Shown in pieces: positions 5,530 to 20,982 of a stretch of 64,000 nt of DNA (positions are counted from its first letter, which is position 1; every line of letters begins with the position of its first letter). A model generated the notes under the pieces. It saw only the letters and a list, made by a program, of their open reading frames with translations, was not told where the DNA came from and ran no database searches. The position numbers were made by a program, and so were the translations under genes. The stretch lies in IMG/VR virus record IMGVR_UViG_3300022821_000011, positions 13,134 through 77,133 of that record; one strand, 5' to 3'. This DNA comes from a virus (lineage: Duplodnaviria; Heunggongvirae; Uroviricota; Caudoviricetes).

Positions 5530-5815
5530 ATTTTAAGTAAATCTGGAATTGATTCTTGACTTGCCAACTGACTTGATCCCAGACTTGATCGCCGACTTGA
5601 TCATTGACTTGATTCCAGACTTGAACTCTTAAACTTTTCATATCAAAGCATTCCTGACTTGATTCCTGGCTTGAGTCCTGACTTGATTCCTGACTTGATT
5701 TTCGACTTGAGTCCAGACTTGAGTCACGACTTGATTCCAAACTTGATTTTCGACTTGATCGCTGACTTGATAATTGACTTGATAATTGGTTTGATCATTG
5801 ATTAGATTCTTTAAA
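5530..5815. repeat. Second array of 12-bp GACTTGATTCNN tandem repeats, paralogous to 107..300
   Basis: Same repeat unit. Minus-strand ORFs 5528..5740 and 5638..5823 encode MKNLKNL-(xxQV)n. Confidence 0.8.
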
Positions 5816-5900
5816 TTTTTCATACTAAATAATTACAAACTTGATTACCGACTTGAGTCCAAACTTGATCTCTAATGTTATTCTTTACACTTTTAATAAA

Positions 5901-5935
5901 TTACTCGATGATATAAAATATATAACATCGAGTAA
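5901..5935. promoter_or_regulatory. Perfect 10-bp inverted repeat (TTACTCGATG...CATCGAGTAA) overlapping the -10 of the promoter at 5917..5945
   Basis: Read directly; the spacer is 15 nt. Confidence 0.6.
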
Positions 5936-5945
5936 CTAATGTCAA
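5917..5945 (-). promoter_or_regulatory. Sigma70-like promoter TTGACA-17-TATATT, with a T4-late-like TATAAATA immediately upstream
   Basis: Plus-strand tgtcaa at 5940-5945 and tatttata at 5946-5953. Confidence 0.5.
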
Positions 5946-5954
5946 TATTTATAT

Positions 5955-6033
5955 TGGAGAGCCAGGTGGGGCTCGAACCCACGTAAGACAGAGATTAAGA
6001 GTCTCTCGCTACAACCGACTCAGCTACTGGCCC
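5955..6033 (-). tRNA. tRNA; probable anticodon CUU (Lys), with a 7-nt variable region
   Basis: Acceptor GGGCCAG/CTGGCTC, anticodon stem AGAGA/TCTCT, loop CTCTTAA, T-arm GTGGG-TTCGAGC-CCCAC, CCA encoded. Confidence 0.55.
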
Positions 6034-6038
6034 ATTTA

Positions 6039-6551
6039 TTATTTTCCGCTATTTCCATTACCGCCACCGCCATTACTAGACCCGCCGCCCTGGCCATTAT
6101 TCCCACCACCATTGCCGGTGCCTGGACCAGATCCGCCATTATTACCGCCGCCGTTGCCAGGATTACCAGCATTTCCATTACCATTACCAGGACCCGAGCC
6201 GCCGTTTCCATTTCCATTTCCGTTATCTGATCCAGATCCGCCGTTTCCATTTCCGTTATCTGATCCAGATCCGCTGTTTCCATTTCCGTTATCTGATCCA
6301 GATCCACCATGATCCGATCCACCGTTTCCGTTACCTGATCCACCGTTTCCGTTACCTGATCCGCCATGACCTGATCCACCATGACCATCACCATGACCTG
6401 ATCCACCATGACCTGATCCGCCATGACCCGATCCGCCATGACCTGATCCGCCATGACCTGATCCACCATGACCATCACCATGACCTGATCCACCATCTGA
6501 TCGAGAAGAAGAACCAAGGCCAATATTTCCGCCAACACCTTCACATCTCAA
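6039..6551 (-). CDS. Gly/His/Asn-rich low-complexity repeat protein (GGSGHGG repeats). It is in-frame with an upstream signal-peptide ORF (6561..6674) across a single TAG codon
   Basis: Translation from ATG 6674 gives MKNIIIMSAIILASSTSLAVASDYCDRLSTETGAFHIQ, then stop, then FELRCEGVGGNIG... in the same frame. Confidence 0.5.
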   Translation of the reverse strand: MRCEGVGGNIGLGSSSRSDGGSGHGDGHGGSGHGGSGHGGSGHGGSGHGGSGHGDGHGGSGHGGSGNGNGGSGNGNGGSDHGGSGSDNGNGNSGSGSDNGNGNGGSGSDNGNGNGNGGSGPGNGNGNAGNPGNGGGNNGGSGPGTGNGGGNNGQGGGSSNGGGGNGNSGK

Positions 6552-7521
6552 TTCAAACTATTGAATATGAAAAGCGCCTGTTTCAGTTGATAGCCTATCG
6601 CAATAATCACTAGCAACTGCTAAAGAAGTAGAAGAAGCCAAAATAATAGCTGACATTATAATAATATTTTTCATTTGTTTCACTTTCATTTGTTTAATTT
6701 TCACTTGTTTAATTTTAATTAATCGACGAAATCGCTAAGATTTGCTTTCCAATTATCAATCTTTCCATATTCATTAATATTCATAATAACATAATCGCCA
6801 TATCCAGGCCCACCTGGTGACATAGAACTAATAACATATGAATCATCCAATCTTTTAACTGGTACATTAATATCATCAAGAAGAGTATATACGCCAGCAT
6901 CACACACTTTATAATGTATCTTAGCTGTTTTTCCAGCTTCCCAATTTGTAATAATACCAGTTTCCAAATCGATGGTAGGTTCCCAGCAATCATTACGCCG
7001 ACATGGAATAAGAGAACCGTCTGTATCTTCTACTCCATTTACTTTACCATCCTCCCAATATCTAACTCCACACGAAGCTTTAAGATATTTCACATCTTTA
7101 ACTACGGTTTCTGTTATTTCAATTTTCATTATCTACAATCCATTCTATAAGTTGTTGTTTAGCTTCTTTGGTCATTGTAAAATTTAAAAATTCAGTTTGA
7201 GAATCTAATCGAATGTATAACTCACCATCATCTTCTTTTTCAATACTAAAGTCTGTAGAACTTCTAGGTCCATATACTATAAATTCTTTTTTACTTTTAA
7301 TAATATCCATATAATCTCATTTCATGTATTTTCGATGATCCACTTTTTAAGTTCTGAAAGTTCTCTTGGAGACAAATCAATAAGTTCTTCAGAACCTCCA
7401 ATATTAATTGTAACAAGTAAATTACCATCGTCACACATAAATAATTCTAAATCATCTCGAATATGCTTTTTAATAATAATTCTTTTGTTATTTTTAATAA
7501 TATCCATTTTATTCTCCAAAT

Positions 7522-7598
7522 TGGCACAGGCACCGGGGATTGAACCCGAAATATCAGCTCCACAAACTGAGGTGTTACCACATTACACTATACCTGCC
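7522..7598 (-). tRNA. tRNA-His (GUG), with an extra 5' G (-1) encoded
   Basis: D-arm GTGT-AATGTGGTA-ACAC, anticodon stem TCAGT/GCTGA, loop TTGTGGA, T-arm TCGGG-TTCAATC-CCCGG, CCA encoded. Confidence 0.7.
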
Positions 7599-7617
7599 TG
7601 ATTGTCAATCATTAATT

Positions 7618-7711
7618 TGGTACTCCCACCAGGATTCGAACCTGGGACGCTCTCTAATCTGGAGACGATGCTGAATATAAGTCAGGTGTTTTACCGCTAA
7701 ACTATGGGAGT
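7618..7711 (-). tRNA. Type II tRNA with a long variable arm; apparent anticodon UAU from loop CTTATAT, so identity is unclear (Leu, Tyr or Ser class)
   Basis: Acceptor ACTCCCA/TGGGAGT plus ACCA, T-arm CCAGG-TTCGAAT-CCTGG, 94 nt. Confidence 0.6.
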
Positions 7712-7716
7712 ATTGT

Positions 7717-7791
7717 TGGTGCCTGTGAGAAGAATCGAACTCCTAATCTACACGTTACAAAGGTGTTGCCTTACCATTCGGCTACACAGGC
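7717..7791 (-). tRNA. tRNA-Thr (UGU)
   Basis: Acceptor GCCTGTG/CACAGGC, D-arm GCCG-AATGGTAA-GGC, loop TTTGTAA, CCA encoded. Confidence 0.75.
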
Positions 7792-7843
7792 GTTATTCTT
7801 TTTTTAACTTTCATCATAATAATTTTCCTTAGTATTAACTATT

Positions 7844-10099
7844 TCAGGATTTCAGGATTTCAGGAACCGATGTTTTATTTGATACAAATTCAAATCCAAG
7901 ATCATCATCTTTTATGACTACCTTAACTTTACCACCATTCATCAACTTGCCAAACAAAACTTCTTCTGCAAGTGGTTGCTTGATGTATTTCTGTATCACT
8001 CGAGCCAATGGACGCGCTCCCATTTGTTCATCATAACCTTTTTCAGCCAACCAATCTCTTGCTTTATCTGAAAGGTCAATAATAATCTCTCTTTCAGAAA
8101 GCTGATTTTCTAATTGATTAACAAATTTATCAACGATGGTACGAACAATTTCTGGCGTTAGATGTGAAAAGCTTACAATTGAATCCAAACGATTTCTAAA
8201 TTCAGGAGCAAAAAGCATATTGATAGCTTCTATATCATCACCTTCTCTTTTGTTTTGAGTAAAACCAAAGGCCGAGGCTGCTAGATTTTGAGCACCAGCA
8301 TTTGTAGTCATAATCAAAATCACATTACGGAAATTTACTGTTTTTCCATTGTTGTCTGTCAACTGACCATTATCCATCACCTGCAATAAAATATTAAAGA
8401 TGGCCGGATGGGCTTTCTCGATTTCGTCGAGAAGGAGAACGCAGTGAGGGTTTTGATCTACACTATCTGTAAGCAATCCACCCTGATCGAACCCAACATA
8501 TCCAGGAGGTGCTCCAATAAGACGGGATACACTATGCGACTCCATATATTCTGACATGTCAAATCTAATAAGATTTACATTAAGAGAATCAGATAGCTGC
8601 TTGGCCACTTCAGTTTTACCGACACCAGTCGGACCCGAGAACAAATAACAGCCAACTGGCTTTTCCATTTCTCTCAATCCAGCTCTAGAAGTCATAATTG
8701 AAGAAACCAAAGCATCAATTGCACTATTTTGACCGAAAACAGATCTTTTCATTTCGCCGGCCAAATCTTTTAGCAAACTACGATCATCTTGAGATATATT
8801 CTTAGAAGGTATTCTTGCAATTTTTGCAATAATATTTTCAATATCAACTACTTCAATTATCTTTTTTCTTTTATCTTCAGTGAACAGCATTTGCGCTGCA
8901 CCAGACTCATCAATCACATCAATTGCTTTATCTGGCAACTTACGATCATGAATATATCTTGAAGATAATTCTACAGCAGATTTTATAGCATCTTCAGTAT
9001 ATTCAACCTTATGAAAATTTTCATATCGAGATTTAAGACCATTCAAAATCTTAATAGCGTCTGCAATAGATGGTTCTTTAACATCTATTTTTTGAAAACG
9101 ACGAACAAGAGCTTTATCCTTCTCAAAATGCTGACGATATTCAGCATATGTGGTTGAACCAATACATCTCAATTCACCAGAAGCCAATGCTGGCTTTAAC
9201 AAATTAGAAGCATCCATTGCTCCGCCGCCAGTTGCGCCGGCTCCAATTAACATATGAATTTCATCAATAAACATAATAGCATTATCATGTTCTTTAATTT
9301 CATTTATAACCGCTTTAATTCTTTCTTCGAAATCTCCACGAAAACGAGCTCCGGCCATCATAGCGCCAAGATCAAGTGAAAAAATCGTACAATCAGAAAT
9401 CACTTCTGGAACTGCTTTGTCAACAATCAATTGGGCTATACCTTCAGCAATTGCTGTTTTACCAACACCAGGATCACCAACAAACAATGGATTGTTTTTC
9501 TTTCGACGGCAAAGAACCTGAATTGTGCGTTCGATTTCTTCTTCTCTACCAATAAGTGGATCAATTTTGCCATCAATAGCTTTTTTATTCAGATCAACAC
9601 AATATTTATCAAGAGCAGATTCGTCGTCGCCTCGCATCATTTCTTCATTACCAACATATTCCATTTCTTTATCTGATTTAGAAATTGCATTCACTATATT
9701 TTCTCGAGATATTCCAAATTCAGTCAAAAGAGTAACAGCATAACTATCTTTTTCTGCAAAGAGAGCAAGAAGAACATCTGAACCATTTACTTGTTCTCTG
9801 CCAGAAGATTGAACCATCACAACTGCTCTTTGAATTACTCGTTGAGCTGAGGCAGTAGGTTCAGGAACTTTTGCTGTATTTGAAGATGAATTATTTGAAG
9901 AGTCTTGAATATACTTATCTAAAGATACGCGTAATTCTCCTATACTTATTCCACATTTTACTATTACAGAAGAAGAACTCTTATTGTCTGTAAGAGCAAA
10001 AAGAAGATGTTCAAGTGTTATATATTCATGAGACATATTAGTTGCTAAAACAACTGCATCATGAAATGTCTTTTCTAAATTTTTAGCAAACGATGGCAT
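7844..10099 (-). CDS. clpA: ClpA-like double-ring AAA+ unfoldase/chaperone (Clp N-domain plus two AAA+ modules)
   Basis: N-domain [10 protein letters not shown]; Walker A GDPGVGKT (D1) and GPTGVGKT (D2); 751 aa with no long ClpB-type middle domain; SD AGGAG. Confidence 0.8.
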
Positions 10100-10128
10100 A
10101 TGTATTACTCCTAATGTTGATAAATTAG

Positions 10129-10157
10129 ATACTATTCTATTCTATCAGAAATGTCAA
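10129..10157 (-). promoter_or_regulatory. Sigma70-like promoter (TTGACA, weak -10) between tRNA-Arg and the clpA-like gene
   Basis: Plus-strand tgtcaa at 10152-10157. Confidence 0.4.
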
Positions 10158-10165
10158 CATAAAAA

Positions 10166-10242
10166 TGGAGCTTCTAGCAGGATTCGAACCCGCGACACTT
10201 AGTTTCGAAAACTAATGCTCTGTCCAGCTGAGCTATAGAAGC
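10166..10242 (-). tRNA. tRNA-Arg (UCG)
   Basis: Acceptor GCTTCTA/TAGAAGC, D-arm TAGCTCAGCTGGACAGAGC, anticodon stem TTAGT/ACTAA, loop TTTCGAA. Confidence 0.8.
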
Positions 10243-10253
10243 ATAATTATTTT

Positions 10254-10317
10254 GGAAGTCCTTGAAAGCCACAGTTTTACCCATTTGGAACTATTTATGC
10301 TTTCAAGGACTTCAATG
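10254..10317. repeat. Conserved hairpin element, copy 1 (15-bp stem GAAGTCCTTGAAAGC with a 29-nt loop), abutting the 3' end of tRNA-Ser
   Basis: Near-identical copies occur at 11453..11510, 14900..14963 and 20983..21046. Each lies immediately 3' of a minus-strand tRNA or tRNA-like gene. Confidence 0.8.
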
Positions 10318-10404
10318 CGGAAGATGCGGGATTCGAACCCACGAAACTATTTGAAGTTTGACAGTTTAGCAAACTGCTGATTTAAGCCACTCATCCAATC
10401 TTCC
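10318..10404 (-). tRNA. tRNA-Ser (GCU), type II; CCA not encoded
   Basis: Acceptor GGAAGAT/ATCTTCC, anticodon stem GCAGT/ACTGT, loop TTGCTAA, T-arm GTGGG-TTCGAAT-CCCGC. Confidence 0.75.
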
Positions 10405-11452
10405 AATTTATTTTTATTTATTAAGATCTAAGGTTGCTGGAAAACCCTGCACTTCAAATTTAGTTATTTTACCTTGTTCTCTAGATTTATCTGATATTTC
10501 ATCAAACCAGGCAAACAAAATATAGTCTATATTATTTGGATCAATTTCAATTTCAAGTATAACTCTCATAGTGTATCCTAACTATAATTAATATATAACT
10601 TTTGATAATATTTTAACACTCCATCATTTTGGCTTATTAAATTTTTTACCATTTCTGGCAGCATTCGTTCAACTTTTTCATATTCGGTTATTTCTACTCC
10701 ACGACTTAAGAATATTCCAAAAATTTCTTCAAATTCTTTAATTGCTCTTTCTTCTGGAGTATTGATTGTTTCTAAATTAGAATAATCATCAGAATTTATA
10801 TAATCGCCAGGCTTTGGATTGGCTCTAGTAACTAAAACAGCTTTAGTCATACCTTCTCCAGTAGCATAATAATCTGAAAGTAAAAAATATATTTTATCCA
10901 TGAACCAAAAACCTCACTGCTATTTCTATTTTACCAAATATTTCTTCATAATTTGTACGAATCAATGATGTACTTATTGTTCCAAACTTAAAGTTATACA
11001 CTTTCCTACGGACATCATATTCAACATTTCCAATAACTACACTAGTTGATTTCATTATAAATCCTCCTTAATGCTATGAGATATTAAATCAACAACATTA
11101 TAAGAAATATATAAAAAATTAAAAATTGATTCTTCTTTTGATTCGATACTAATGTTAGTTGTATAAGATAAACAATATATATCTATCTTATTAAAAATAT
11201 CTCTACTAAGTAAACGCATTAATCACTCCTGCATAAATGTGATCAGTAATGTCATAATTCACATATATTTTTCCAGTGTGTGTATTATGTATTTGCGAAT
11301 TAAAAGAAACTTTTAAAAGTATTTCAGATTCAAAATGATAGTAAATAATATCAGATGTGTTTTTCATATTAAAACCTCAATTCTCTTGATATCTTAAGAC
11401 AAATTTCTTGATAAAAATCACGACACTTTGTTATATCAATTTTATTCATTTA

Positions 11453-11510
11453 GGAAGTCCTTAGCTTATAAACCCGTCGACGGATATTTATAAAACTAAG
11501 GACTTCAATG
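11453..11510. repeat. Conserved hairpin element, copy 2 (stem GAAGTCCTTAG/CTAAGGACTTC)
   Basis: Same family as 10254..10317. Confidence 0.7.
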
Positions 11511-11585
11511 TGCCGGAACGCTTGGTTTCGAACCAAGTTTTCTTCCTTATGAGGAAAGCGAGATAACCAATACCTCCCCGCCGGC
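11511..11585 (-). tRNA. tRNA-like, anticodon CAU. The acceptor 3' strand carries a 2-nt insertion (CG-TT-CCGGC against 5' GCCGGCG); possibly a degenerate or specialised tRNA
   Basis: D-arm GAGG-TATTGGTTA-TCTC, anticodon stem CTTTC/GGAAG, loop CTCATAA, T-arm CTTGG-TTCGAAA-CCAAG. Confidence 0.45.
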
Positions 11586-11836
11586 TTAAAATTTTATAGT
11601 ATATTATTTGCTTTAATATAATTATAAAGTAAGCTATGACTGATAATATAACTATCATATACTTTTCGAAGTTCAAAAGGCGCTCTCATGTTATTTCCAT
11701 CAATCCAATTAAGAACTGTTCGCTCTTTTTTATTATAAATGGTTGTAGATAATTTCATCATTTTGATAATCCTATGTAAAAACAGCGATAATATTAATAT
11801 ATCATCGCTGCTCTAAATTGTCAATTATAAAATGTA

Positions 11837-13297
11837 TTAAACTGCAATATCGTATCGCTCATTCATAATTGTTTTAAGCATAATAGCTTCAGGTGTCATA
11901 TTCTCCATATCAGAGCTAAGCACTGACTTAACAATAGTTGGAGAGAAACCAGAAACCATAGCTATACCACGATCGTCAAATCTAACTGGCACATCTGATT
12001 TTGCATTAAGATTCCAGAATACAATACCCGGCATAATATATCCAGCCATTTCATACTTATGACGAATCATTTCTACAGCTGAATGATCTAGATTTGCACA
12101 TTGATCAAACTGCATATCTGACATGATCATAATAACATCTGGCATATCTTCTTGTGGTACACTATGAGCTACAGCAAGATTAAGAACTTTATCAAAAGCA
12201 GCATGAAGATTTGTATTCATTGCCCATTTTGAACGCTTCATTTGATCTACTTTCTGAAGAATATCACCTCTAAGAGTAAGCAATTCAGGAGAACCAGAGA
12301 AAGTAAGGAATGTGTCCTTATAAACTCCGGTATTCTTATCAGCCAAATACAGGCCAAGAGACACTGAAACATCAAGACAAGTAACAGATGATTTGCTAGT
12401 ATGCCCACCCGCTAGAGTCATCATTGATCCAGAAACATCTACCATTGGAAGAATCTTTGCATCTCCAACAAAATTTGGAAGAGCTTTCCACTGAGCAGCA
12501 ATATGACCCTTTTCAACATTTGTATATCTTTGGTCATTATATATACTAGCCAGACCCTTAAGAACATCATAAGGATATACTGCTCCAGCATTTACTTTAA
12601 CACTCTCATCACCAGAAGTTAGCTTCTCAACATATTCTTCAAAATTAACAGAGTGACGATTAAAAGCCTTCTTATATCTAGCTGAAGCAAGAGAAGGAAC
12701 TTTGCTATAATCAATAGCATCCCATTCATTTGCACACATAAGTGTTTCAACAACCTTTGTAAGTTCTACAAGACGCTTACGATAAAACTTTGGAGTCCAT
12801 CCAAAATACTTACGAAGACTAACTGCCTTAGGACCTTTTCGTGGCATCCACTTAGCGCAAAGACCATTTCCATCATCAAGAGCTTTCTTAATAAGATCAT
12901 AAGCATAAGCCTTAACTGGAATGCTTTCAAAATCTACAAGAAGATCATCCCAACGGCCAATTTCCGGAGTCTTATCAATAAGAGCTTTAGCCTGATCTTC
13001 TGGCAAAAACTTCAAAATGTCACGATATATCTGACGTTCACCGCTTCCTTCACGAGCATCTCGAACCCACTGAGCAATACGCAAAGCGTACTCAGGATTC
13101 TCCACATGAGCCGCTGTGAAATCCGGCTTGATATTCTTCCCACGAGAAGCTCCGATCTTGAAAAAAAGATCTACATTCTTATTTGCAGAAGTAACACGAG
13201 ACTTCATACCATTTTCGGTACGGGCTTCTTGTTCTTGAATTGAATCAATAAACTTATTCATTTTCATTTTCCTTTCATCTGGATAATTGACCACCAT
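11837..13297 (-). CDS. rsr: Ro60-like protein (TROVE-like N-terminal region plus a C-terminal vWA domain with MIDAS motif VDVSGSM). The likely true start is MKMNKF, near 13270
   Basis: MIDAS DxSxS in LPMVDVSGSMM; overall size and architecture match Ro60/Rsr; SD AAGGAAA upstream of the internal ATG. Confidence 0.55.
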   Translation of the reverse strand: MVVNYPDERKMKMNKFIDSIQEQEARTENGMKSRVTSANKNVDLFFKIGASRGKNIKPDFTAAHVENPEYALRIAQWVRDAREGSGERQIYRDILKFLPEDQAKALIDKTPEIGRWDDLLVDFESIPVKAYAYDLIKKALDDGNGLCAKWMPRKGPKAVSLRKYFGWTPKFYRKRLVELTKVVETLMCANEWDAIDYSKVPSLASARYKKAFNRHSVNFEEYVEKLTSGDESVKVNAGAVYPYDVLKGLASIYNDQRYTNVEKGHIAAQWKALPNFVGDAKILPMVDVSGSMMTLAGGHTSKSSVTCLDVSVSLGLYLADKNTGVYKDTFLTFSGSPELLTLRGDILQKVDQMKRSKWAMNTNLHAAFDKVLNLAVAHSVPQEDMPDVIMIMSDMQFDQCANLDHSAVEMIRHKYEMAGYIMPGIVFWNLNAKSDVPVRFDDRGIAMVSGFSPTIVKSVLSSDMENMTPEAIMLKTIMNERYDIAV

Positions 13298-13400
13298 TGG
13301 TCTTAATTACTCGCTAATGCGAATAATAGGAATCGAACCTATTATTATTTTTGCTGAATTTATCCTATTCTAAACATCAGGTTCAGTTTGCTTTTTTTGA
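13285..13400 (-). ncRNA. Circularly permuted tRNA-like module, candidate YrlA-type Y RNA number 2, in the 5' leader of the Ro60-like gene. Order is T-arm, acceptor stem closed by an ATTA loop, then D-arm
   Basis: Minus-strand order: T-arm ATAGG-TTCGATT-CCTAT, then TATTCGC, ATTA, GCGAGTA, then D-arm GACC-AATGGTG-GTC. There is no 5' acceptor partner in the normal position. Confidence 0.5.
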
Positions 13401-13589
13401 TTACAAGTCAAATGCTTTAAGCTTGCGGAAATGAACCTATTTTTATTTCAACAGATTAGTTATCTACTTCTTATTTAATGTGGAGAAATCGAAGACCACT
13501 GCCATGTTTTGATGGTTTGCTGCAACTAATCTAAATTCTAATTTTTATCTAACTACTACTAATTTTTACTTAAATATTCAACAGATTGA

Positions 13590-13710
13590 TATTTGCTACC
13601 TGCTCTACCAACTGAGCTACCTCTCCATAGAAAATGGTGGAGAGGGTTGGACTTGAACCAACGACCAGGGATTTTCAAGATCATGCTTTGATTGCTGTAA
13701 TCAATCTAAT
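13590..13710 (-). ncRNA. Circularly permuted tRNA-like module, candidate YrlA-type Y RNA number 1. Order is T-arm, acceptor 3' strand plus ACCA, an 8-nt loop, acceptor 5' strand, then D-arm
   Basis: Minus strand reads GTTGG-TTCAAGT-CCAAC CCTCTCC ACCA TTTTCTAT GGAGAGG TA GCTC-AGTTGGTA-GAGC. The flanks carry GATTGAT/ATCAATC complementarity. Confidence 0.5.
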
Positions 13711-13882
13711 TCTATTTACTCTATTTGTTTATACTGGATCATCTTGGTTTTTTTTTCAACAAAAAATAAATGATTGCGGAACTGATCCAAAACTCTATTG
13801 CGTTTGTATTCAACAGGATTAACTTTGCTTTTTTGAAATAAAAGTTTGTTTGATTGCTGTAATAATCCTAAATTATGTATAT

Positions 13883-13911
13883 ATTATATTCTATTCATAT
13901 ATTGATGTCAA
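13883..13911 (-). promoter_or_regulatory. Perfect consensus sigma70 promoter (TTGACA-17-TATAAT) directed at the Y-RNA-like modules and the Ro60-like gene
   Basis: Plus-strand tgtcaa at 13906-13911. The -10 on the minus strand is TATAAT, 17 nt downstream. Confidence 0.65.
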
Positions 13912-13928
13912 CAAGTATTTTTAATTTT

Positions 13929-14003
13929 TGGTGGAAATGGCTGGAATCGAACCAACAAATGCTCAATTATCAGTTGAGTGCCTGGCCACTTGGCTTCACT
14001 TCC
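13929..14003 (-). tRNA. tRNA-Ile (GAU)
   Basis: Acceptor GGAAGTG/CATTTCC plus ACCA, anticodon stem CTCAA/TTGAG, loop CTGATAA, T-arm GTTGG-TTCGATT-CCAGC. Confidence 0.75.
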
Positions 14004-14019
14004 TTAATAAGCAGGATGG

Positions 14020-14200
14020 TGAGAGAAACTACCAACTTCTCTCACCTCGACATCTTGCGGATGTTTAATATTACTTGCGGTAATATTCTAGGACGTCCAG
14101 ACGCCCTGAAGTTTTTTTTGTCGGATTACTTATAAATCCGAGGGAACATGCGTGCATAGCCCTAGTCCACGGCATAATTATTAACGACTAAATTATACAA
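14020..14200. ncRNA. GC-enriched structured non-coding segment upstream of tRNA-Ile. It includes a 10-bp hairpin GGTGAGAGAA...TTCTCTCACC (14023-14051) and the hairpin TCGGATT...AATCCGA. Possibly a small stable RNA
   Basis: No plausible ORF, local GC well above the genome background, several perfect stems. Confidence 0.35.
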
Positions 14201-14899
14201 AAACGGAATGTTAACGCTATCTCTGCGGGTTCTTTTACCAGCCAGCGGAATGTCGGTGGCCGGTTTTATCATAAAATTTACAATTAATAATTTGTTCTGG
14301 TATTCTTTTAAGAACATCTTTTTTCATTTCATCTTCTGCTTGAATTCTAGAATTAAAAATGCCAAGTCTTATTGTTTTTGTATTTTGTTTAAATATTTTT
14401 TGTATAAACGAAGTTTCTTCATGTTTAATAATAGCATCTAAATATATTTTGCCTTCTATAGATTCAGATATAATATATTCTTTAACTAACATTAGTTTCC
14501 CCAATCAAAATAATTTGTGGCAGTTGTATATGTGCCACCACTAGTGCATGATGTATCATATATTGGTTGGAAAACGCTAGCAGATGTATAAGTAGCGGTT
14601 GATGTTACATAAATTGTAGGACCATTTCTTTGATCCCATCGTATATCAGTTATCTCTCCATCTTTAACTACTCTACAATGTTCATGCCCACAAGACGGAC
14701 ATTCAAGAACATGATTTCCATTTAAAGCAACATCTACAATAAATTGAACCCAATTATCGCAGCCATGACAATGAATTTCTTGTCTATGCTCAGTCTTCTT
14801 TTTAGGAAAAATCTTAGGTTTCCATTTAGGTTTTCTTAATGCCATAATCACACTTATTTTCTAATTTGTTTATTTTGTCTATGCTATATAATTCACTTA

Positions 14900-14963
14900 G
14901 GAAGTTCTTGAAAGTCATAGTTTTACCCATCTGGAACTATTTGTACTTTCAAGAACTTCAATG
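14900..14963. repeat. Conserved hairpin element, copy 3
   Basis: GGAAGTTCTTGAAAGT...ACTTTCAAGAACTTCAATG. Both stem and loop are homologous to copy 1. Confidence 0.75.
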
Positions 14964-15042
14964 CGGGGAAGACGGGAATCGAACCCGCTTTGCTTTCGCG
15001 TCACAGCGACAGTGTGGTAGCTACCCATTTGCCATCATCCCC
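14964..15042 (-). tRNA. tRNA-like. Canonical T-arm and acceptor; possible anticodon GUC (Asp) from loop CTGTCGC, with an extended variable region that contains a GAAA tetraloop
   Basis: Acceptor GGGGATG/CTTCCCC with one mismatch, T-arm GCGGG-TTCGATT-CCCGT. The anticodon arm is ambiguous. Confidence 0.4.
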
Positions 15043-15284
15043 ATTTATCTTTCTAAAATCACATAATCACCAAAATACTTATCAAAAGTTTCAACAAGAT
15101 TTTCATAATCTCCTGAAGTCATTTCTTCACGAATTGTACCAAAATCTAAATTTAATTCTTTTGCATATTGTTTTGCATAACCAAGAAGAACATATGCATT
15201 ACCATCTGGACCAGTCAAATCAATTACTATTTCAGCAGTCCTTTGTTTTTTTCTAATCATAATGTGTTTCCTTATTATGATGTT

Positions 15285-15313
15285 ACTATATACTGTGTTC
15301 TATATGGTGTCAA
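15285..15313 (-). promoter_or_regulatory. Sigma70-like promoter TTGACA-17-TATAGT for ORF 15045..15260
   Basis: Plus-strand tgtcaa at 15308-15313; SD AAGGAAA precedes the ATG at 15260. Confidence 0.55.
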
Positions 15314-15831
15314 CATCTTTTAGCAAGTCTATGGCTCTTTTTTTCCAGTCATCTCTTTGCCATGCTATTTTTTCTTGACTCAATTCATGATAATCATTTG
15401 CAATGAATTCTACAAATCGTCTATATTGATCATATTTAGCAAACCAGGCATGAGTTGGATGAACTTCACCGGTTGATATAATATGATAACACGGAAAACA
15501 TAAATTACCTATAAATCTACCTTCATTTTCATGATTTGTACAGCCATATGTAATGCATTTTTTAATCATTTGGTGATCTCACTATGGTTGACTGTTTTTG
15601 AATTAAAAGTAAACCATCTGAAATATCAAAATTCTTACCTTTGACGACACAATACAACTCACCAGAAATCATATTTTCATATGGAACTGAATTAAGACTA
15701 GCGCACTTTCTCATATTCATATTACTGTCCGAAAAATTTACAAGCAACACAAATAAAGAAAATAATAAAATTGCTGCTAATACAAAAGAAAGAAATTTAG
15801 AGTCCATAATCATAACAAAATCCTTAATTGT

Positions 15832-15907
15832 TGGTGCTCATGGTGGGATTCGAACTCACACTGATTAGTTCCTAAAACTAATGCCTCTGCCGTTGGGCTA
15901 CACGAGC
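15832..15907 (-). tRNA. tRNA with anticodon UAG (reads CUA, Leu) but type I architecture with a short variable arm
   Basis: Acceptor GCTCGTG/CATGAGC plus ACCA, D-arm GCCC-AACGGCA-GAGG, anticodon stem ATTAGT/ACTAAT, loop TTTAGGA. Confidence 0.6.
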
Positions 15908-15908
15908 G

Positions 15909-16346
15909 TTATTCTAAATATTGTTTCCATTCTTTGGCGAATGAACAGTTTCTAGCGCCTTTAAAAAGAGGGGCAATTTCTTCGTCTTTAAATCCAGCTA
16001 ATCCACACCCAATTCTTGTTACAAAATATTGTGGCAAAATTTTATTAAATACCATAAAGTCATCATTCGTAACTCTAATAAAATCATTTATATATTGAAC
16101 GACCTCATTAAGTGAAAGAGTTCTAATGTTATTATCTTTTGTTGGAATAGCATAAGATTTAAAATCTGGCTGCCATCCTATTCCTTTTCCATATTGAGCA
16201 CCAAATTTAGAAGCAGCTATTTTAGCTGCTCCCGCTCCGTGTATTCCGGCAAGATTTGAACCAAAGACCCAAACTTCTTTATTTTCTGGAAGTGTTCTGT
16301 CTTTATGATATTTAATCGTGCTGATATTCATCAATATCAATACCAT
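15909..16346 (-). CDS. Macro-domain-like protein (putative ADP-ribose binding or hydrolase)
   Basis: VFGSNLAGIHGAGAAKIA resembles the macro-domain Gly-rich motif (NAANxxLxxGGGVxxAI). Confidence 0.35.
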   Translation of the reverse strand: MVLILMNISTIKYHKDRTLPENKEVWVFGSNLAGIHGAGAAKIAASKFGAQYGKGIGWQPDFKSYAIPTKDNNIRTLSLNEVVQYINDFIRVTNDDFMVFNKILPQYFVTRIGCGLAGFKDEEIAPLFKGARNCSFAKEWKQYLE

Positions 16347-17364
16347 CTCTTGAAATAATTACTTTGACATGATCACCAAACACCATTTCCATCACATCAT
16401 TTTCTACTTTTCCAATAATTTTACAAAAATCACCAAAACTCTTTTTAAAACTATCAAGTTCTTTTACATCATAGCTAGACAAAAAAGATTCAATTTTGTC
16501 AATTGATTTTTGTGCATCAACTGTTGAAGAAGGATATGGCTTTAAATTATTTTCTCCATAATATGAAGAATATTCTCGGCCATGCCTGATTTTATATTCA
16601 TCCATATATGATTGTCTCCATGCTTCTGGGTCTTCTTCATATAATTTTGCGGCAGCATAGGCTTTTTTAGCAGACTTTAAGTTTTCAGATGTATATATTG
16701 CTGATCCTTCATAATCGCAATACTCATCAGAATAATCACCATCTTCATCAATATCACTATTAAGAGTAAAACCAATTTCATTAACACTAAATTCACATGA
16801 TTCACCATCATTAAAATATGGAGTGTATTGAGTCCAAAAAATATCATGCACAAAAGGATAATTTTCAAAAATCTCTTTAGCGCCACGTTCAATAATAACT
16901 TTTGATTGATCACTCATTTTACTTTTCAGAACACTTATTTGATCTGAAAGTTCATTAAAGTTTTTAGTCAAAGTTTCATAATCAATTTCCATTATATATT
17001 TCCTTAATCAGAGTTTAAATTCATTTTTTTAGCAAATGCTTTTTGACCTACTCCAAGCATCCACGGCTTAGGTTCTATAGTTTCAACCCAGTCTTCAATC
17101 GTTGGAATTATACCACCACAGTCCTCTTTTACGTGATCCTCTCCTATATCTCGAACAGAAATATCTTTCCCATCTGAATTTGAAATAGTGGTTCCAAAAA
17201 CCTGTTCGCATAGAAAAATTCCAAATGTATTATGAAGAATTGCTCTATGACCAAAATTAGCATATGCTGCTTTTGTACTATCAAACCAGTCATGAATAGG
17301 CATGTAATCGGCAATTTCACCGCCATATCTTTTAACCGAATTTTTAGCATGAATATATGGTTTA

Positions 17365-18093
17365 ATGATTTTTCTCCTTATAAATAAAAATAAAAGGTTA
17401 ATTATGTATTATACTATATACAAAACTACAAATAATGTCAATAATAAAATTTATATTGGTATGCATCAAACCAAAAATTTAGATGATGGATATATGGGTT
17501 CAGGACTTCTTTTAACCAAATCTATAAAAAAATTTGGCAAAGAAAATTTTAATAAAGAAATTCTTCACGTTTTTGATAATGAAGAAGAAATGAATCTTAA
17601 AGAAAAAGAATTAGTAAATGAAGAATTTTGTAATTCTAATAATAATTATAATCTGTGTCCTGGAGGTAATGGTGGGGCTATTAGAAAAGGAGCAATTCTT
17701 ACACAAGAAACAAAAAATAAGATTTCAAAAAATACTAAAAAAGCAATGGAAAATAAAGAAATTCGTTTAAATCTATCGAACAAAAGAAAATCTCGAATTA
17801 CAAAAGACGAAACTAGAAAAAAAATGTCTGAAAGAGTTTCTAATACAACTTGGATATATCATTATAAATCAAAACAGTCTAAAATGATTCAACAACACGA
17901 AAAAGAAAAATATTTAAATTCTAATAAATGGTTTTTGGGTCGTGGTTTTAAAGCAAAAGGAACACCTAAAAAAGTAATGCTTTATAACATTGAATATTCT
18001 TCATTAAAAGAAGCAGCAAAAGATGTAAACAAAAGTGATACTTGGGTTAGAAATCAAATTAATAATCCAAATATTATTGCAGAATATATCTAA
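17365..18093 (+). CDS. GIY-YIG homing endonuclease (Seg-like), plus-strand, embedded in the tRNA array
   Basis: YTIYKTTN...IYIGMHQT...DGYMGSG GIY-YIG core. This is one of the very few plus-strand genes and is analogous to T4 segB in the tRNA cluster. Confidence 0.7.
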
Positions 18094-18111
18094 TTATATT
18101 CTTCTATTAAA

Positions 18112-18187
18112 TGGTGCTCCTAAAAGGATTCGAACCTCTGACGCGTAAATCTTCAATCTACCGCTCTACCAACTGAGCTATAGAAGC
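18112..18187 (-). tRNA. tRNA-Phe (GAA)
   Basis: Acceptor GCTTCTA/TAGGAGC, D-arm TAGCTCAGTTGGTAGAGC, loop TTGAAGA. Confidence 0.8.
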
Positions 18188-18223
18188 ATTATAAAATATG
18201 TTAACTCAAACGTCAACAAAAAA

Positions 18224-18297
18224 TGGATCCCCCGGCTGGACTCGAACCAACATATTAAGCACCAAAAACTTGCGTCCTACCATTAGACGACAGGGGA
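18224..18297 (-). tRNA. tRNA-Gln (UUG)
   Basis: D-arm GTCT-AATGGTA-GGAC, loop TTTTGGT, T-arm GTTGG-TTCGAGT-CCAGC, CCA encoded. Confidence 0.65.
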
Positions 18298-18666
18298 ATA
18301 ATTATCCTGTACCATTTGTTTTTAAATCCCATATTGTATTTGACATAATATTTCTTAAACTAGTAATATCATGCAAATTAATATTATTAACATCTGACCA
18401 ACCTGGTAATATAGAAATAAAAGTAGTTCCGTTTTTTCTATGTTTCTTGTGAAACTAACCACATCGTCGCCTCCACACTATATAAAACATCAAGTTGTTT
18501 TTTATTAAGTGACTTAATCGTATTAAAATTAGCAGAAGTAAAAGAATAAAAAGAATAATATTTATCACTATGTTTTACATTCTTAATAAATTGTATTTGT
18601 TTATCAATATTATCATTAAAAGTATAATGAGCGCTAACAAACAAACTGTGTAATTGTTTCATATTT

Positions 18667-18741
18667 TGGATCTTCCATGTGGATTCGAACCACAACTATT
18701 TGAGTCAGAGTCAAAGGTTCTACCAATTAAACTACAGAAGA
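18667..18741 (-). tRNA. tRNA-Gln (CUG)
   Basis: Anticodon stem TTTGA/TCAAA, loop CTCTGAC, T-arm GTGG-TTCGAAT-CCAC, CCA encoded. Confidence 0.7.
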
Positions 18742-18742
18742 A

Positions 18743-19078
18743 TTATTCTACTAACGTGATTTTTACTTCACATAGTCCATCACAACCAATTTTCTTAGCA
18801 GCCGCTTCTGATAAATCTATAGATCTACCTTTTATAAAAGGACCTCTGTCATTAATTCTTACAATAACAGATTTTCCTTTAAATATAACTTTTATAAAAG
18901 TTCCAAAGGGTAATATTTTATGAGCTGCTGTATAAGCATTCTTATTAAATATTTCTCCATTAGCGGTAAGCTTACCATGAAATCCTGGACCATACCAAGA
19001 AGCAATAACAACTTTAGGCTTAGATAAAGAAACAGTTGTAAAAACAATCAAAAATAATATTGGTAAAATTAATCTCAT
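18743..19078 (-). CDS. RlpA-like double-psi beta-barrel (DPBB) protein with a signal peptide; a putative peptidoglycan-binding or lytic accessory protein
   Basis: [17 protein letters not shown]...INDRGPF...[12 protein letters not shown] matches the RlpA/DPBB family. Confidence 0.7.
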
Positions 19079-20111
19079 TTAAAACCTACAAAAATTTAAA
19101 TGGTGGAACTTTTCTTTTAACACTATGCTTTTTCATATATATCTTATATTCTTTTAGCTTTTTTTCATATAGCTTTATATTTTCATCATATTCATCAAGT
19201 TTATCTTTAATATAGATTTCAGCATGTTTTTCAGAATCAAACAATATATCTGAAACAAAATTTTTAGTATAATCAGAAACCTTAAACCACATACAAAAAA
19301 ATCCATAATTATATTCAATATTATATTTATTATAAGCAGTTTGATCATTTACAATTCTATATGATCGCTTGGTTGGCTTATACGGCTTTATTAATTTATT
19401 TGAACTCATAATTCTTTTATTATCCATTCTTCTTTGATTTCAAGTTCTAGACATATATATTCATCTGAATATTCATCATATTTAAATCGATAACCCCAGC
19501 GTTCTCCATCATTATCTCCTTCATCTGAAGAAAAACAAATATCGCCAACACATTTGTTTTCAATCAAAATGTCAATTGTTTCTGGAATGCTACTTAAAAA
19601 ATCCATATGTTCATTTGCGTCACTATCAAATTCAATAGTTTTTCTGTCAATATCATATGCAATAAAATGACCTTCTTTATTTACAACCTTATCAATTTTA
19701 TCAAAAACTTCTAATGACACTTTTACTGTATTCTTAACACAATTTATAGTCCACATAATCTATTCCTTTATATGCGATGAAATTATACTTTTTAAATGAT
19801 GATACAATGCAGTAGTTCCACTATGAAGATCATGATGCTTTTCTATATCATCGCAAAGATCATTTAATAAACACTCAGAAGTAAAGTTCAAATTTTTCCA
19901 ATTTGGAATTGGTGTATTATTGTCCATTAAATCGCTACTTTTCTTTTAAGTCGAACATCACCTTCATCCATATAATCATCACCAGCATATTCTGAAAAAG
20001 TTTTATATAGTTCATTCCAAACTACATCAATTTCACAAACAGTCATTTCTATATAAGTATGATCTGATGCTGGTACTAAAATAGTTTCTTTCATAATATA
20101 TTTCCTTTTAG

Positions 20112-20201
20112 TGGAGGAAGGAGCGGGATTCGAACCCGCGGAACCTTGCGGTTCGTCTGCTTTCAAAACAGAAGCCTTAAGCCAGACTCGGCCACCCTTC
20201 C
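20112..20201 (-). tRNA. tRNA-Ser (UGA), type II
   Basis: TGGCCGAGT...GG D-arm, anticodon stem TCTGT/GCAGA, loop TTTGAAA, variable hairpin GAAC-CGCAAG-GTTC. Confidence 0.8.
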
Positions 20202-20982
20202 AATATTATTTTACATTTAATTTTTCGAAAAGAAGTTTCCATTTTTCTTCTGGAGTTTCTGTTACAATAGCATTTACAATTTCAACTAATGTATCATGAT
20301 ATTTTTCTGGATGTCGAAAATAAAAACTTGCATATGTGCTATCAAACGAATCATCTTCATCATAATGATATAGAGGATGATCTCTCATTGCTTCGAAAAC
20401 TTCTTCATAAGCTTCTCTGTTTCCACCACCACATCTAGTATAAACAACAAGATGATCTTCTGTCAAATAAGCATCTCTAAATCTTCCAAAATCTACTGAT
20501 GTTAATTCTAAAACACCTAAAACCAATGGAGAAATTGCATTAACTCCAAATGTCATATTATATAAACTCATTTTATTAATCCAATGTCGTTGTAGTTTTT
20601 TTAAGTCTTATGTGAGAAACAGTCCAATTATTACTTTCAATAGTTTGTTTTATATCATTTTCAAATTCTTCAACTTCTTTATCATTTTTACAATTAAAAT
20701 TTCCAGAAAATTCATCCCCAGAGTCTTCAATAGTAACAATGAATGTATATGAGTCTGCCATAATATATCATCCTTAATAAATAAGAGACGTATCAGTTAT
20801 ACGTTCCATTAAATCAAATATAGCCCACGCTTGACAACCCAAACACATTGCTTCATGGCGATCACATCGATCACCATATATTTCTGTTAAAACTCTAGCC
20901 TGTTTATTAAGAGCTTCTTCTCTTAGGTTTCTAAGTTTCTTTTTTTTTCATTTTATATCCTTAATCGCTCATAAAGCATTTA

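What the first reader, a model, noticed from the sequence alone, without database searches (positions are those of the whole stretch)
11837..14003. Ro60-like (TROVE+vWA) gene preceded by two circularly permuted tRNA-like RNAs, a candidate phage Y-RNA (YrlA-type) module
The 486-aa ORF ends in a vWA domain with the MIDAS motif VDVSGSM characteristic of Ro60/Rsr. Immediately upstream on the same strand, driven by a perfect TTGACA-17-TATAAT promoter at 13883..13911, lie two elements read in permuted order (13590..13710 and 13285..13400). Their minus-strand order is T-arm, acceptor 3' strand (plus ACCA), a short loop, acceptor 5' strand, then D-arm, with no anticodon arm. In element 1 the acceptor strands CCTCTCC/GGAGAGG are perfectly complementary but in the wrong order for a tRNA gene. 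This is the architecture described for bacterial YrlA Y RNAs, which are encoded next to rsr and mimic tRNA. The repeated motif AATCTGTTGAA between the two elements may contribute Ro-binding stem strands.
Basis: partly seen in the sequence, partly recalled or inferred. Interest (0 to 1): 0.85.

Follow-up and report, generated by a model that had tools for sequence, protein, structure and literature searches.

The report
Phage Ro60-like protein with RNA array
A large T4-like phage encodes a ring-shaped, Ro60-like RNA-binding protein directly behind six small RNAs that share one conserved "handle" but carry different tRNA-derived heads. The pairing recurs in phages of at least four bacterial phyla, and its RNA signature matches an orphan RNA class of social amoebae.

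Summary
One transcription unit runs on the minus strand. It has a perfect sigma-70 promoter (13911..13883), six stem-closed small RNAs (13872..13275), a 474-aa ORF (13261..11837) and a strong terminator.

All six RNAs share a handle: (U)AG, a 7-bp covarying stem, unpaired N-U-W-C-N-G-C-A-A, then a 3' strand ending CU followed by GU. One of them hits Rfam YrlA at 40 bits, below the 69-bit threshold. The canonical Ro-binding GNCGAA motif is absent.

A model of the handle finds 152 copies in 83 related loci, all on the gene's strand. The units sit inside tRNA gene arrays. The gene-RNA pairing recurs in phages of Proteobacteria, Cyanobacteria, Actinobacteria and Firmicutes.

The handle matches Dictyostelium Class I RNAs nearly column for column.

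Verdict: a new variant of the Ro60/Y-RNA ribonucleoprotein, and not a YrlA/TROVE member. I found no description of it in the searched literature.

The parts
13883..13911 (-). Sigma-70 consensus promoter, TTGACA-17-TATAAT. It is the predicted start of the RNA-array and protein transcript.
   Evidence: 12 of 12 matches. It is one of six perfect copies in the window, all on the minus strand, against 0.06 expected.
13810..13872 (-). Unit 1, a small handle RNA of about 57 nt. The closing stem is AGGAUUA/UAAUCCU, followed by UU-ACAGCAA, and the 3' end reads CCU-GUUGA.
   Evidence: Model R1 scores 64.7 bits, though this unit was in the training set. Rfam Dicty_Class_I_RNA scores 32.2 bits with E 0.0024. 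The pattern scan also finds it.
13730..13792 (-). Unit 2, a small handle RNA of about 57 nt. The closing stem is UGGAUCA/UGAUCCA, followed by GU-UCCGCAA.
   Evidence: R1 scores 55.8 bits (this unit was in the training set). The pattern scan finds it.
13578..13710 (-). Unit 3, the handle plus a circularly permuted tRNA body. Closing stem 13708..13700 with 13590..13582; anticodon-loop-like hairpin 13682..13670; T arm 13662..13646; closed acceptor hairpin with ACCA 13645..13620; D arm 13617..13602.
   Evidence: R1 scores 35.1 bits and this unit was not in the training set. Rfam YrlA scores 40.1 bits against a threshold of 69. The single-sequence fold has z -2.8. The consensus structure of 21 homologues has 17 of 22 covarying pairs.
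13448..13535 (-). Unit 4, the handle (AGAUUAG/CUAAUCU, UU-GCAGCAA) plus a T-arm-like hairpin GUGG-UCUUCGAUUUCU-CCAC and an AAGUAGA motif. The same head class recurs in other phages.
   Evidence: R1 scores 38.1 bits and this unit was not in the training set. The same head is seen in L003, L048 and L073.
13374..13441 (-). Unit 5, the handle (AGGUUCA/UGAACCU, UU-UCCGCAA) plus an anticodon-stem-loop-like hairpin UUGA-CUUGUAA-UCAA.
   Evidence: R1 scores 48.6 bits and this unit was not in the training set. The hairpin was found. The same head class is common in related loci.
13275..13369 (-). Unit 6, a weaker handle (GGAUAA/UUAUCC, AU-UCAGCAA) plus a second permuted tRNA-like body. T-arm-like hairpin 13342..13326; closed acceptor-like hairpin 13325..13308; D-like hairpin 13302..13289. 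It ends 14 nt before the start codon.
   Evidence: R1 scores 15.7 bits with E 0.17. The fold has z -3.5.
11837..13261 (-). Gene for a 474-aa Ro60-fold protein (stop codon included). It has an N-terminal helical repeat domain (Pfam DUF2828) and a C-terminal vWA domain (DUF7788). The MIDAS residues are DVSGSM plus a conserved T and D.
11773..11814 (-). Intrinsic-terminator-like hairpin (16 bp) followed by a U run, just after the stop codon.
   Evidence: Fold energy -21.6 kcal/mol, z -6.4.

Best explanation
This is a phage ribonucleoprotein module of the Ro60/Y-RNA type, built from a different protein family and a different RNA family than the canonical one.

One transcript starts at the consensus promoter. 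It carries six small RNAs and then the mRNA of a ring-shaped Ro60-fold protein (DUF2828+DUF7788).

Each RNA has the same handle:
- a 5' (U)AG;
- a 7-bp helix whose sequence varies freely but always pairs;
- an unpaired N-U-W-C-N-G-C-A-A immediately after the 5' strand;
- a 3' strand that ends in CU and is followed by GU(U).

I infer that the handle is the binding site of the protein. I also infer that the variable head is displayed as an adaptor or decoy, as in Y RNAs. The heads are tRNA-derived: two circularly permuted tRNA bodies, a T-arm-like hairpin and an anticodon-stem-loop-like hairpin.

In related phages the units sit between tRNA genes on the same strand, often a few bases from them. 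They are therefore probably released by the tRNA-processing nucleases.

The most likely role is to couple the ring protein to tRNA-recognising enzymes or nucleases during infection. That could mean surveillance or repair of tRNA-like RNAs, or titration of host anticodon nucleases.

Shown here: the anatomy, the Ro60 fold, the conserved and covarying RNA structure, and the gene-RNA linkage across phyla. Inferred: physical binding, processing and the biological role.
For: Protein:
- Ro60 chains are the top 11 Foldseek hits over the full length.
- Curators of other phages annotate homologues as 'Ro-like RNA binding protein'. One record cites an HHpred match to 2NVO.

RNA:
- Model R1 finds six hits in the 64-kb window, all within 13275..13872(-). 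The next best hit scores 12.7 bits.
- R1 finds 152 hits at E<=1e-3 in 83 loci, and 152 of 152 lie on the gene's strand.
- The pattern scan finds 252 copies on the gene strand and 36 on the opposite strand.
- The closing stem shows double changes at 5 of 7 pairs.
- The permuted tRNA body has 17 of 22 covarying pairs.

Linkage tested from the RNA side:
- Of 80 loci found with the RNA pattern alone, 24 hold the gene within the fetched stretch.
- In those loci, 31 of 31 motif copies lie on the gene's strand.

The pairing recurs next to the gene in distant cultured phages:
- Synechococcus BUCT-ZZ01
- Salmonella FelixO1
- Stenotrophomonas DLP_6
- Cronobacter S13
- Mycobacterium LeBron
- Listeria LP-083-2
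- Staphylococcus S-CoN_Ph2
- Campylobacter Los1

tRNA context:
- 89 of 98 motif copies lie within 500 nt of a same-strand tRNA gene, with a median gap of 6 nt.
- 36 of 72 small units carry an anticodon-loop-like hairpin, against 0.8 expected from shuffles.
- In the Listeria phage an RtcB-like ligase gene lies 1.3 kb downstream on the same strand. This mirrors the rsr-yrlA-rtcBA neighbourhood of Salmonella (Chen 2014, PMC4201824).
Against: - There are no expression or binding data. RNA ends, processing and protein binding are all inferred.
- The units used for the covariation count were selected for a paired stem, so that count is partly circular. The strand bias and the RNAalifold result are not circular.
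- 56 of the 80 loci found by the RNA motif show no gene within the fetched stretch. The RNAs are therefore not strictly gene-adjacent. In two cases a second locus from the same contig does carry the gene.
- KVP40 and Ochrobactrum phage OC show no clear unit next to the gene.
- Unit 6 matches the model only weakly (15.7 bits).
- The Ro60 similarity rests on a predicted model (pLDDT 79.7) and not on sequence. The family profile finds no Ro60 chain in the PDB.
Confidence: 0.65

Rival explanations
1. It is an ordinary member of the known system: a divergent Rsr/TROVE Ro60 with canonical YrlA Y RNAs. Such pairs have already been reported in 22 phages.
For: The Rfam YrlA model matches 13694..13572 over its full length. 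It also matches equivalent units in L049, L014, L007, L012 and L013 at 29-41 bits. The protein has the Ro60 fold. Phage Ro60/Y-RNA pairs are known (PMC4201824, PMC12135203).
Against: Every YrlA score is below the 69-bit gathering threshold. The score comes from the tRNA-like core and not from the Ro-binding stem. The GNCGAAN0-1G motif is absent, and the conserved handle reads WCNGCAA instead. Pfam TROVE gives no hit at E<=1, and the family profile finds no Ro60 chain in the PDB. Four of the six units have no YrlA-like body at all.
Confidence: 0.1
2. The units are cis-acting elements of the transcript and do not form a trans-acting ribonucleoprotein. They might be translational operators, processing punctuation or stabilisers for the gene and for the tRNA arrays.
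For: The array lies in the 5' leader of the ORF. The last unit ends 14 nt before the start codon here, and only a few nt before it in many loci. The units abut tRNA genes with a median gap of 6 nt.
Against: Units also occur downstream of the gene (LeBron, Staphylococcus phage, L032, L058, L075-L079). They occur kilobases away inside tRNA arrays as well (FelixO1). There are up to eight diverse copies per array, each with an elaborate conserved head class, which is more than punctuation would need. An autoregulatory role for the last unit is compatible with the main explanation.
Confidence: 0.13
3. The units are decaying or duplicated tRNA genes, or tRNA-derived repeats, that accumulate in phage tRNA clusters. 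They have no functional tie to the protein.
For: The heads are tRNA-derived. The units live inside tRNA arrays. Most loci found by the RNA motif lack the gene within the fetched stretch.
Against: The conserved part is the non-tRNA handle. Its termini are invariant and its stem covaries. The same handle accompanies the gene in phages of four bacterial phyla whose genomes are otherwise unrelated. Strand agreement with the gene is total. Head classes are conserved between phages. Pseudogenes would not keep 17 of 22 pairs through compensatory changes.
Confidence: 0.07

Closest known systems
Bacterial and phage Ro60 (Rsr) with YrlA Y RNAs (Chen et al. 2014, PMC4201824; Rfam RF02553; Thermus phage phiLo Ro60 with Yrl1/Yrl2, PMC12135203)
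   Same: - The protein is a ring-shaped helical-repeat domain plus a vWA/MIDAS domain.
- Several small RNAs are encoded on the same strand beside the gene.
- Each RNA has a terminal stem plus a variable module.
- At least one module is a tRNA mimic with the order T arm, closed acceptor, D arm.
- An RtcB ligase gene lies nearby in one relative, a Listeria phage.
   Different: - The protein belongs to Pfam DUF2828+DUF7788, not TROVE, and has only 12-16% identity to Ro60.
- The handle is (U)AG-stem-NU-WCNGCAA...CU-GU in place of the bulged GNCGAA helix.
- YrlA scores of 29-41 bits fall below the 69-bit threshold.
- Arrays hold up to eight units and are embedded in tRNA gene clusters.
- The heads also include unpermuted tRNA bodies, T-arm-only heads and anticodon-loop-like hairpins.
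Dictyostelium Class I RNAs (Rfam RF01414; Kjellin et al. 2021, PMC7919456)
   Same: - Sizes are 42-65 nt, and the small phage units are 50-70 nt.
- The start is (A)AG.
- A short terminal stem covaries.
- The unpaired motif CUUACAGCAA sits directly after the 5' stem strand, where the phage units have N-U-W-CAGCAA.
- The interior is variable.
- The end is CUGU.
- MAFFT aligns the two sets column for column.
- All three hits of the Rfam model, at E<=10 in about 120 kb searched, fall on phage units.
   Different: - The scores of 32.2, 23.0 and 22.7 bits are below the 41.5-bit threshold.
- The stem-to-motif spacing differs by one nucleotide.
- Class I RNAs are eukaryotic, come from dispersed genes with a DUSE promoter, and are reported as unique to Dictyostelia.
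- Their only proven direct binder is the RRM protein Rnp1A.
- I could not test whether Dictyostelia encode a DUF2828 protein.
DUF2828/DUF7788 proteins annotated 'Ro-like RNA binding protein' or 'RNA-binding protein' in cultured phages (PHROG 850; for example LeBron gp53, FelixO1 ORF86, KVP40.0300)
   Same: They belong to the same protein family, with 31-48% identity over the full length. The window protein is a plain member.
   Different: Those annotations cover only the protein. None of the records I inspected annotates the accompanying RNAs. In Cronobacter phage S13, two of them are labelled as 121-nt and 113-nt tRNAs.

Membership tests
Ro60 / TROVE (Pfam PF05731) | Significant match to the TROVE profile | tested here: not met
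   Pfam scan at E<=1 returns only DUF7788, DUF2828 and a weak DUF7249. The profile of 49 family members finds no Ro60 chain in the PDB.
Ro60 / TROVE (Pfam PF05731) | Helical-repeat ring domain followed by a vWA domain with a MIDAS motif | tested here: met
Ro60 / TROVE (Pfam PF05731) | Binds Y RNAs and misfolded RNAs | not testable with these tools
   This needs EMSA or co-immunoprecipitation.
YrlA Y RNA (Rfam RF02553) | Score at or above the gathering threshold of 69 bits | tested here: not met
   40.1 bits for 13694..13572. Equivalent units elsewhere score 29-41 bits.
YrlA Y RNA (Rfam RF02553) | tRNA-like domain in the order T arm, closed acceptor stem, D arm, inside a terminal stem | tested here: met
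   Single-sequence fold. RNAalifold on 21 sequences gives 17 of 22 pairs with compensatory changes.
YrlA Y RNA (Rfam RF02553) | Ro-binding helix with the GNCGAAN0-1G motif (Chen 2014) | tested here: not met
   No unit has this motif. The conserved sequence beside the stem is N-U-W-C-N-G-C-A-A.
YrlA Y RNA (Rfam RF02553) | Encoded within 4 kb of a Ro60 orthologue, on the same strand | tested here: inconclusive
   It lies 317 nt upstream on the same strand, but the gene encodes a protein with the Ro60 fold and not a TROVE orthologue.
Dictyostelium Class I RNA (Rfam RF01414) | Score at or above the gathering threshold of 41.5 bits | tested here: not met
   32.2 bits for window 13868..13814. Two units in L038 score 23.0 and 22.7 bits.
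Dictyostelium Class I RNA (Rfam RF01414) | Short covarying terminal stem, conserved (A)AG start and CUGU end, and an 11-nt motif CCUUACAGCAA after the 5' stem strand | tested here: inconclusive
   The stem, the AG start, the CU-GU end and U-W-CAGCAA are present. Eight of the 11 motif positions match and the spacing differs by one nucleotide. The RNA ends have not been mapped.
Dictyostelium Class I RNA (Rfam RF01414) | DUSE promoter about 60 nt upstream; found in Dictyostelia | tested here: not met
   This is a phage sequence with a bacterial sigma-70 promoter.
DUF2828 + DUF7788 protein family (PF11443, PF25043; PHROG 850) | Matches above the curated cut-offs | tested here: met
   DUF7788 scores 155.9 bits against a cut-off of 27.1, and DUF2828 scores 80.2 against 29. 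PHROG 850 gives E 5e-135 over the full length.

The most novel reading that the evidence does not exclude
The handle (AG-stem, UUACAGCAA, CU-GU) is the recognition element of DUF2828/DUF7788 proteins wherever they occur. Dictyostelium Class I RNAs would then be the eukaryotic members of this RNA family. They are abundant, developmentally regulated, 20 years old as a class, and still without a mechanism. Together the two sets would define a second Ro60-like ribonucleoprotein family shared by phages and eukaryotes. DUF2828 genes also appear in plant studies. The protein would be the missing Class I RNA partner.
Probability: 0.35. Interest if true: 0.9.

Novelty: new variant of a known kind. Interest (0 to 1): 0.78.

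Why it matters
Ro60/Y-RNA particles are a classic but still poorly understood RNA-surveillance system and a major human autoantigen. Three points follow if this finding holds.

**A much larger sister system.** The protein family has 5885 clusters at 50% identity. It occurs in 711 cultured phage genomes, including Felix O1, KVP40, Listeria, Staphylococcus and Campylobacter myoviruses and cluster L mycobacteriophages. This system has its own RNA code.

**A testable ligand for a domain of unknown function.** The work assigns candidate RNA ligands to DUF2828/DUF7788, explains odd "tRNAs" in phage annotations, and ties the system to phage tRNA arrays. Those arrays are currently discussed as counter-measures to host tRNA-cleaving defences.

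**A route into the Dictyostelium question.** Kjellin et al. (2021) report the Class I RNAs as unique to social amoebae. The resemblance turns the question of what those RNAs do into a direct experiment.

Tried and rejected
1. Sequence searches of the single protein and of the family profile against the PDB gave no Ro60 hit. Only the comparison of folds showed the relationship.
2. A Foldseek search of the AlphaFold database was meant to list eukaryotic homologues, Dictyostelium included. That library was not available.
3. I searched the Dictyostelium proteome files in the supplements of PMC7919456 for family motifs. The files are truncated, and only an unrelated vWA protein matched.
4. I considered pairing between the conserved CAGCA and the 3' UGUUG tail, as a pseudoknot. 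I rejected it because the middle base of W-C-N-G-C-A varies without any compensating change in the tail.
5. I tested whether the anticodon-loop-like hairpins copy the phage's own tRNA-Thr, tRNA-Ser or tRNA-Glu anticodon arms. They do not.
6. I looked for units beside the gene in KVP40 and Ochrobactrum phage OC. None was convincing.
7. Ten full-text literature searches found nothing that links this protein family to RNAs (among them). The terms included DUF2828, DUF7788, UCP015417, Ro-like, Ro60-like, and YrlA with phage. Avesson et al. 2011 and Sim et al. 2020 are not held in the library.
Full report
**Setting.** The window comes from a large T4-like phage.
- It encodes a family B DNA polymerase, a gp44-type clamp loader, ThyX, an NAD salvage pair and a ClpA-like ATPase.
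- It carries 26 tRNA genes and a permuted tmRNA, all on the minus strand.
- The finding lies inside the tRNA-rich part.

**Observation.**
- The ORF 11837..13297(-) contains MVDVSGSM. The 100%-identical database protein P0001 has 474 aa, so the true start is most likely the ATG at 13261.
- TTGACA-17-TATAAT sits at 13911..13883. It is one of six perfect copies in the window, all on the minus strand, where shuffles give 0.06. These are therefore real promoters of this phage.
- A 16-bp hairpin followed by a U run comes directly after the stop codon (z -6.4). Promoter, RNAs, ORF and terminator thus form one transcription unit.

**The protein.**
- Pfam assigns DUF2828 (aa 172-273) and DUF7788 (aa 285-467). 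It gives no TROVE match even at E<=1. PHROG 850, named 'RNA-binding protein', matches end to end.
- Neither the single sequence nor a 49-sequence profile finds Ro60 in the PDB.
- The AlphaFold model (pLDDT 79.7, pTM 0.75) tells a different story. The 11 best Foldseek hits in the PDB are all Ro60 chains aligned over the full length.
- The MIDAS residues D-x-S-x-S, T and D are invariant in the family.
- The family is very large, with 5885 clusters at 50% identity. It occurs in 711 cultured phage records. Some of those are annotated 'Ro-like RNA binding protein', and one cites an HHpred match to 2NVO.
- The protein is therefore Ro60-like in fold, but it is not a TROVE family member by the family's own test.

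**The RNAs.**
- A simple pattern was used: a 7-bp stem, two bases, N-C-N-G-C-A, up to 260 nt, the complementary strand, then GT. It hits four times on the minus strand, all between 13869 and 13451, and once elsewhere in 128 kb of both strands.
- In 80 loci fetched through the protein, the pattern hits 252 times on the gene's strand and 36 times on the other strand. Most hits lie in arrays of up to eight units directly upstream of the gene.
- The profile of 164 distinct units reads UUU-A-G-G-W-U-N-N-N-U-W-C-A-G-C-A-A at the 5' side and N-N-A-W-C-C-U-G-U-U at the 3' side.
- I built a covariance model, R1, from 65 small units. It finds six hits in the window, all within 13872..13275(-). Four of them were not in the training set (48.6, 38.1, 35.1 and 15.7 bits). 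The next best hit in 64 kb scores 12.7 bits.
- Across 83 loci R1 finds 152 hits at E<=1e-3, every one on the gene's strand.
- Five of the seven stem pairs show double changes. Because the units were picked for a paired stem, the strand bias and positional clustering are the independent evidence.

**The heads.**
- Unit 3 folds as closing stem, short CUUGAAA hairpin, T arm, closed acceptor with ACCA, and D arm. RNAalifold on 21 such units, including one from mycobacteriophage LeBron, predicts the closing stem, T arm, closed acceptor and D arm on its own. Seventeen of the 22 pairs show compensatory changes.
- Rfam YrlA matches unit 3 over its full length at 40.1 bits, where the threshold is 69. 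It matches equivalent units elsewhere at 29-41 bits.
- Unit 6 folds into a T-arm-like, an acceptor-like and a D-like hairpin inside its closing stem (z -3.5).
- Other phages carry units with an unpermuted tRNA body inside the handle, where the Rfam tRNA model matches positions 5-66.
- Cronobacter phage S13 has the opposite topology. It holds two complete tRNAs whose anticodon arm is replaced by a loop-capped handle, CAAACU-GAC-AAGUUUG-UA-UUCAGCA. They are annotated as 121-nt and 113-nt tRNAs.
- Half of the small units (36 of 72) carry a hairpin with a 7-nt loop of anticodon-loop form, mostly CUUGAAA or CUUGUAA. Shuffles give 0.8. Window unit 5 is of this class, and unit 4 belongs to a conserved class with a T-arm-like hairpin.
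- The handle is therefore a module that is combined with tRNA-derived parts in several topologies.

**Linkage tested from the RNA side.**
- A scan of viral contigs with an RNA-only pattern returned 80 loci. Twenty-four contain a homologue of the protein within the fetched stretch, and all 31 motif copies in those loci are on its strand.
- The other 56 loci show no gene nearby, so the RNAs are not confined to the gene's flank. In two cases a second locus from the same contig does carry the gene.
- 89 of 98 motif copies lie within 500 nt of a tRNA gene on the same strand, with a median gap of 6 nt. The units are thus embedded in tRNA arrays and are probably released by tRNA processing. That last step is an inference.

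**Phylogenetic breadth.** Units with the same handle lie next to the gene in these cultured phages:
- Synechococcus phage BUCT-ZZ01
- Salmonella phage FelixO1 (between tRNA genes)
- Stenotrophomonas phage DLP_6
- Mycobacterium phage LeBron (three units, the middle one with a permuted tRNA body)
- Listeria phage LP-083-2 (three units)
- Staphylococcus phage S-CoN_Ph2
- Campylobacter phage Los1

In the Listeria phage an RtcB-like ligase gene follows 1.3 kb downstream. This recalls the rsr-yrlA-rtcBA neighbourhood of Salmonella. KVP40 and Ochrobactrum phage OC show no clear unit beside the gene.

**Comparison with known systems.**
- Canonical YrlA and Y RNAs are defined by a Ro-binding helix with GNCGAAN0-1G, and they were found beside TROVE genes, including in 22 phages (PMC4201824).
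- The Thermus phage phiLo Ro60 binds two upstream RNAs with a CGAA motif and recruits host PNPase (PMC12135203).
- The present handle has no such motif. What it does resemble is the Dictyostelium Class I RNA. Those RNAs are 42-65 nt long, start with (A)AG, have a short covarying stem, carry the unpaired CCUUACAGCAA after the 5' stem strand, and end in CUGU. They are reported as unique to Dictyostelia (PMC7919456).
- The Rfam Class I model hits window unit 1 at 32.2 bits (E 0.0024) and two units in L038 at about 23 bits. In about 120 kb searched at E<=10 it hits nothing else.
- Curated D. discoideum sequences align column for column with the phage units. All three scores are below the 41.5-bit threshold, and the spacing differs by one base.
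- The full-text search for DUF2828 returns four plant studies and one tardigrade genome paper. I could not test whether the family exists in Dictyostelium.

**Mechanism.**
- Shown: the operon-like anatomy, the Ro60 fold, a conserved and covarying RNA handle with tRNA-derived heads, and the association of gene and RNA across four bacterial phyla.
- Inferred: the protein binds the handle, and the heads act as adaptors or decoys for tRNA-recognising enzymes, by analogy with Y RNAs that tether Ro60 to PNPase.
- Inferred: the particle serves tRNA surveillance or repair, or titrates host anticodon nucleases. The last unit may also let the protein repress its own translation.
- I put 0.65 on the ribonucleoprotein reading as a whole. 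Any specific downstream function is clearly less certain.

**Novelty.** Ten full-text literature searches found no description of RNAs associated with this protein family. The library lacks most subscription-journal papers, so prior description cannot be excluded. I rate the finding a new variant of a known kind.

Noticed in passing
window 62145..62513 (-): A permuted (two-piece type) tmRNA gene with tag peptide ANDNFAPLALAA, encoded by the phage. Related contigs carry one too (L053 1997-2211 and L049 120-407, Rfam tmRNA_permuted at 77-79 bits).
   Followed up: no
window 6..34661 (-): There are 26 tRNA genes, all on the minus strand. All eight that I read in full end in an encoded CCA. The Ro60-like module sits in the middle of this array.
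   Followed up: partly
window 7618..7711 (-): tRNA-Ile(UAU) is 94 nt long with a long extra arm, which is unusual for an isoleucine tRNA. The sequence UUCAGCA directly follows its anticodon loop and resembles the handle motif. This may be a coincidence.
   Followed up: partly
window 14004..14240 (-): A 237-nt non-coding stretch upstream of tRNA-Ile(GAU) folds into a chain of hairpins (-63 kcal/mol). CCGCAAG recurs as a hairpin loop. No Rfam family matches it.
   Followed up: partly
window 13883, 21732, 24398, 32570, 44815, 48294 (-): Six perfect TTGACA-N17-TATAAT promoters, all on the minus strand, against 0.06 expected by chance. They are probably the phage's early promoters for host RNA polymerase.
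   Followed up: partly
L086 (Cronobacter phage S13, NC_028773.1) 4429..4549 and 4559..4671: Two features annotated as tRNA-Ser (121 nt) and tRNA-OTHER (113 nt) are complete tRNAs. Their anticodon arm is replaced by a loop-capped copy of the handle, CAAACU-GAC-AAGUUUG-UA-UUCAGCA. This is the opposite circular permutation of window unit 3.
   Followed up: partly
L208 (Listeria phage LP-083-2, KJ094030.1) 5857..7068: An RtcB-like RNA ligase gene lies 1.3 kb downstream of the DUF2828 gene on the same strand. tRNA genes and three handle RNAs lie upstream. This resembles the bacterial rsr-yrlA-rtcBA arrangement.
   Followed up: no
window 40213..41999 (-): Two adjacent ORFs carry a NUMOD3 homing-endonuclease motif and a weak intein-splicing match. 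They lie just downstream of the DNA polymerase gene on the minus strand, which suggests a mobile insertion in the replication module.
   Followed up: no
window 1815..2516 (-) and 4811..5335 (-): Two calcineurin-like metallophosphoesterase genes lie inside the tRNA array. They could be RNA-end-healing enzymes.
   Followed up: no
L040 7096..7202 (-): A related viral contig matches the Rhizobiales sRNA Atu_At1 above threshold (70.8 bits against 60). This hints at an alphaproteobacterial host for that relative.
   Followed up: no
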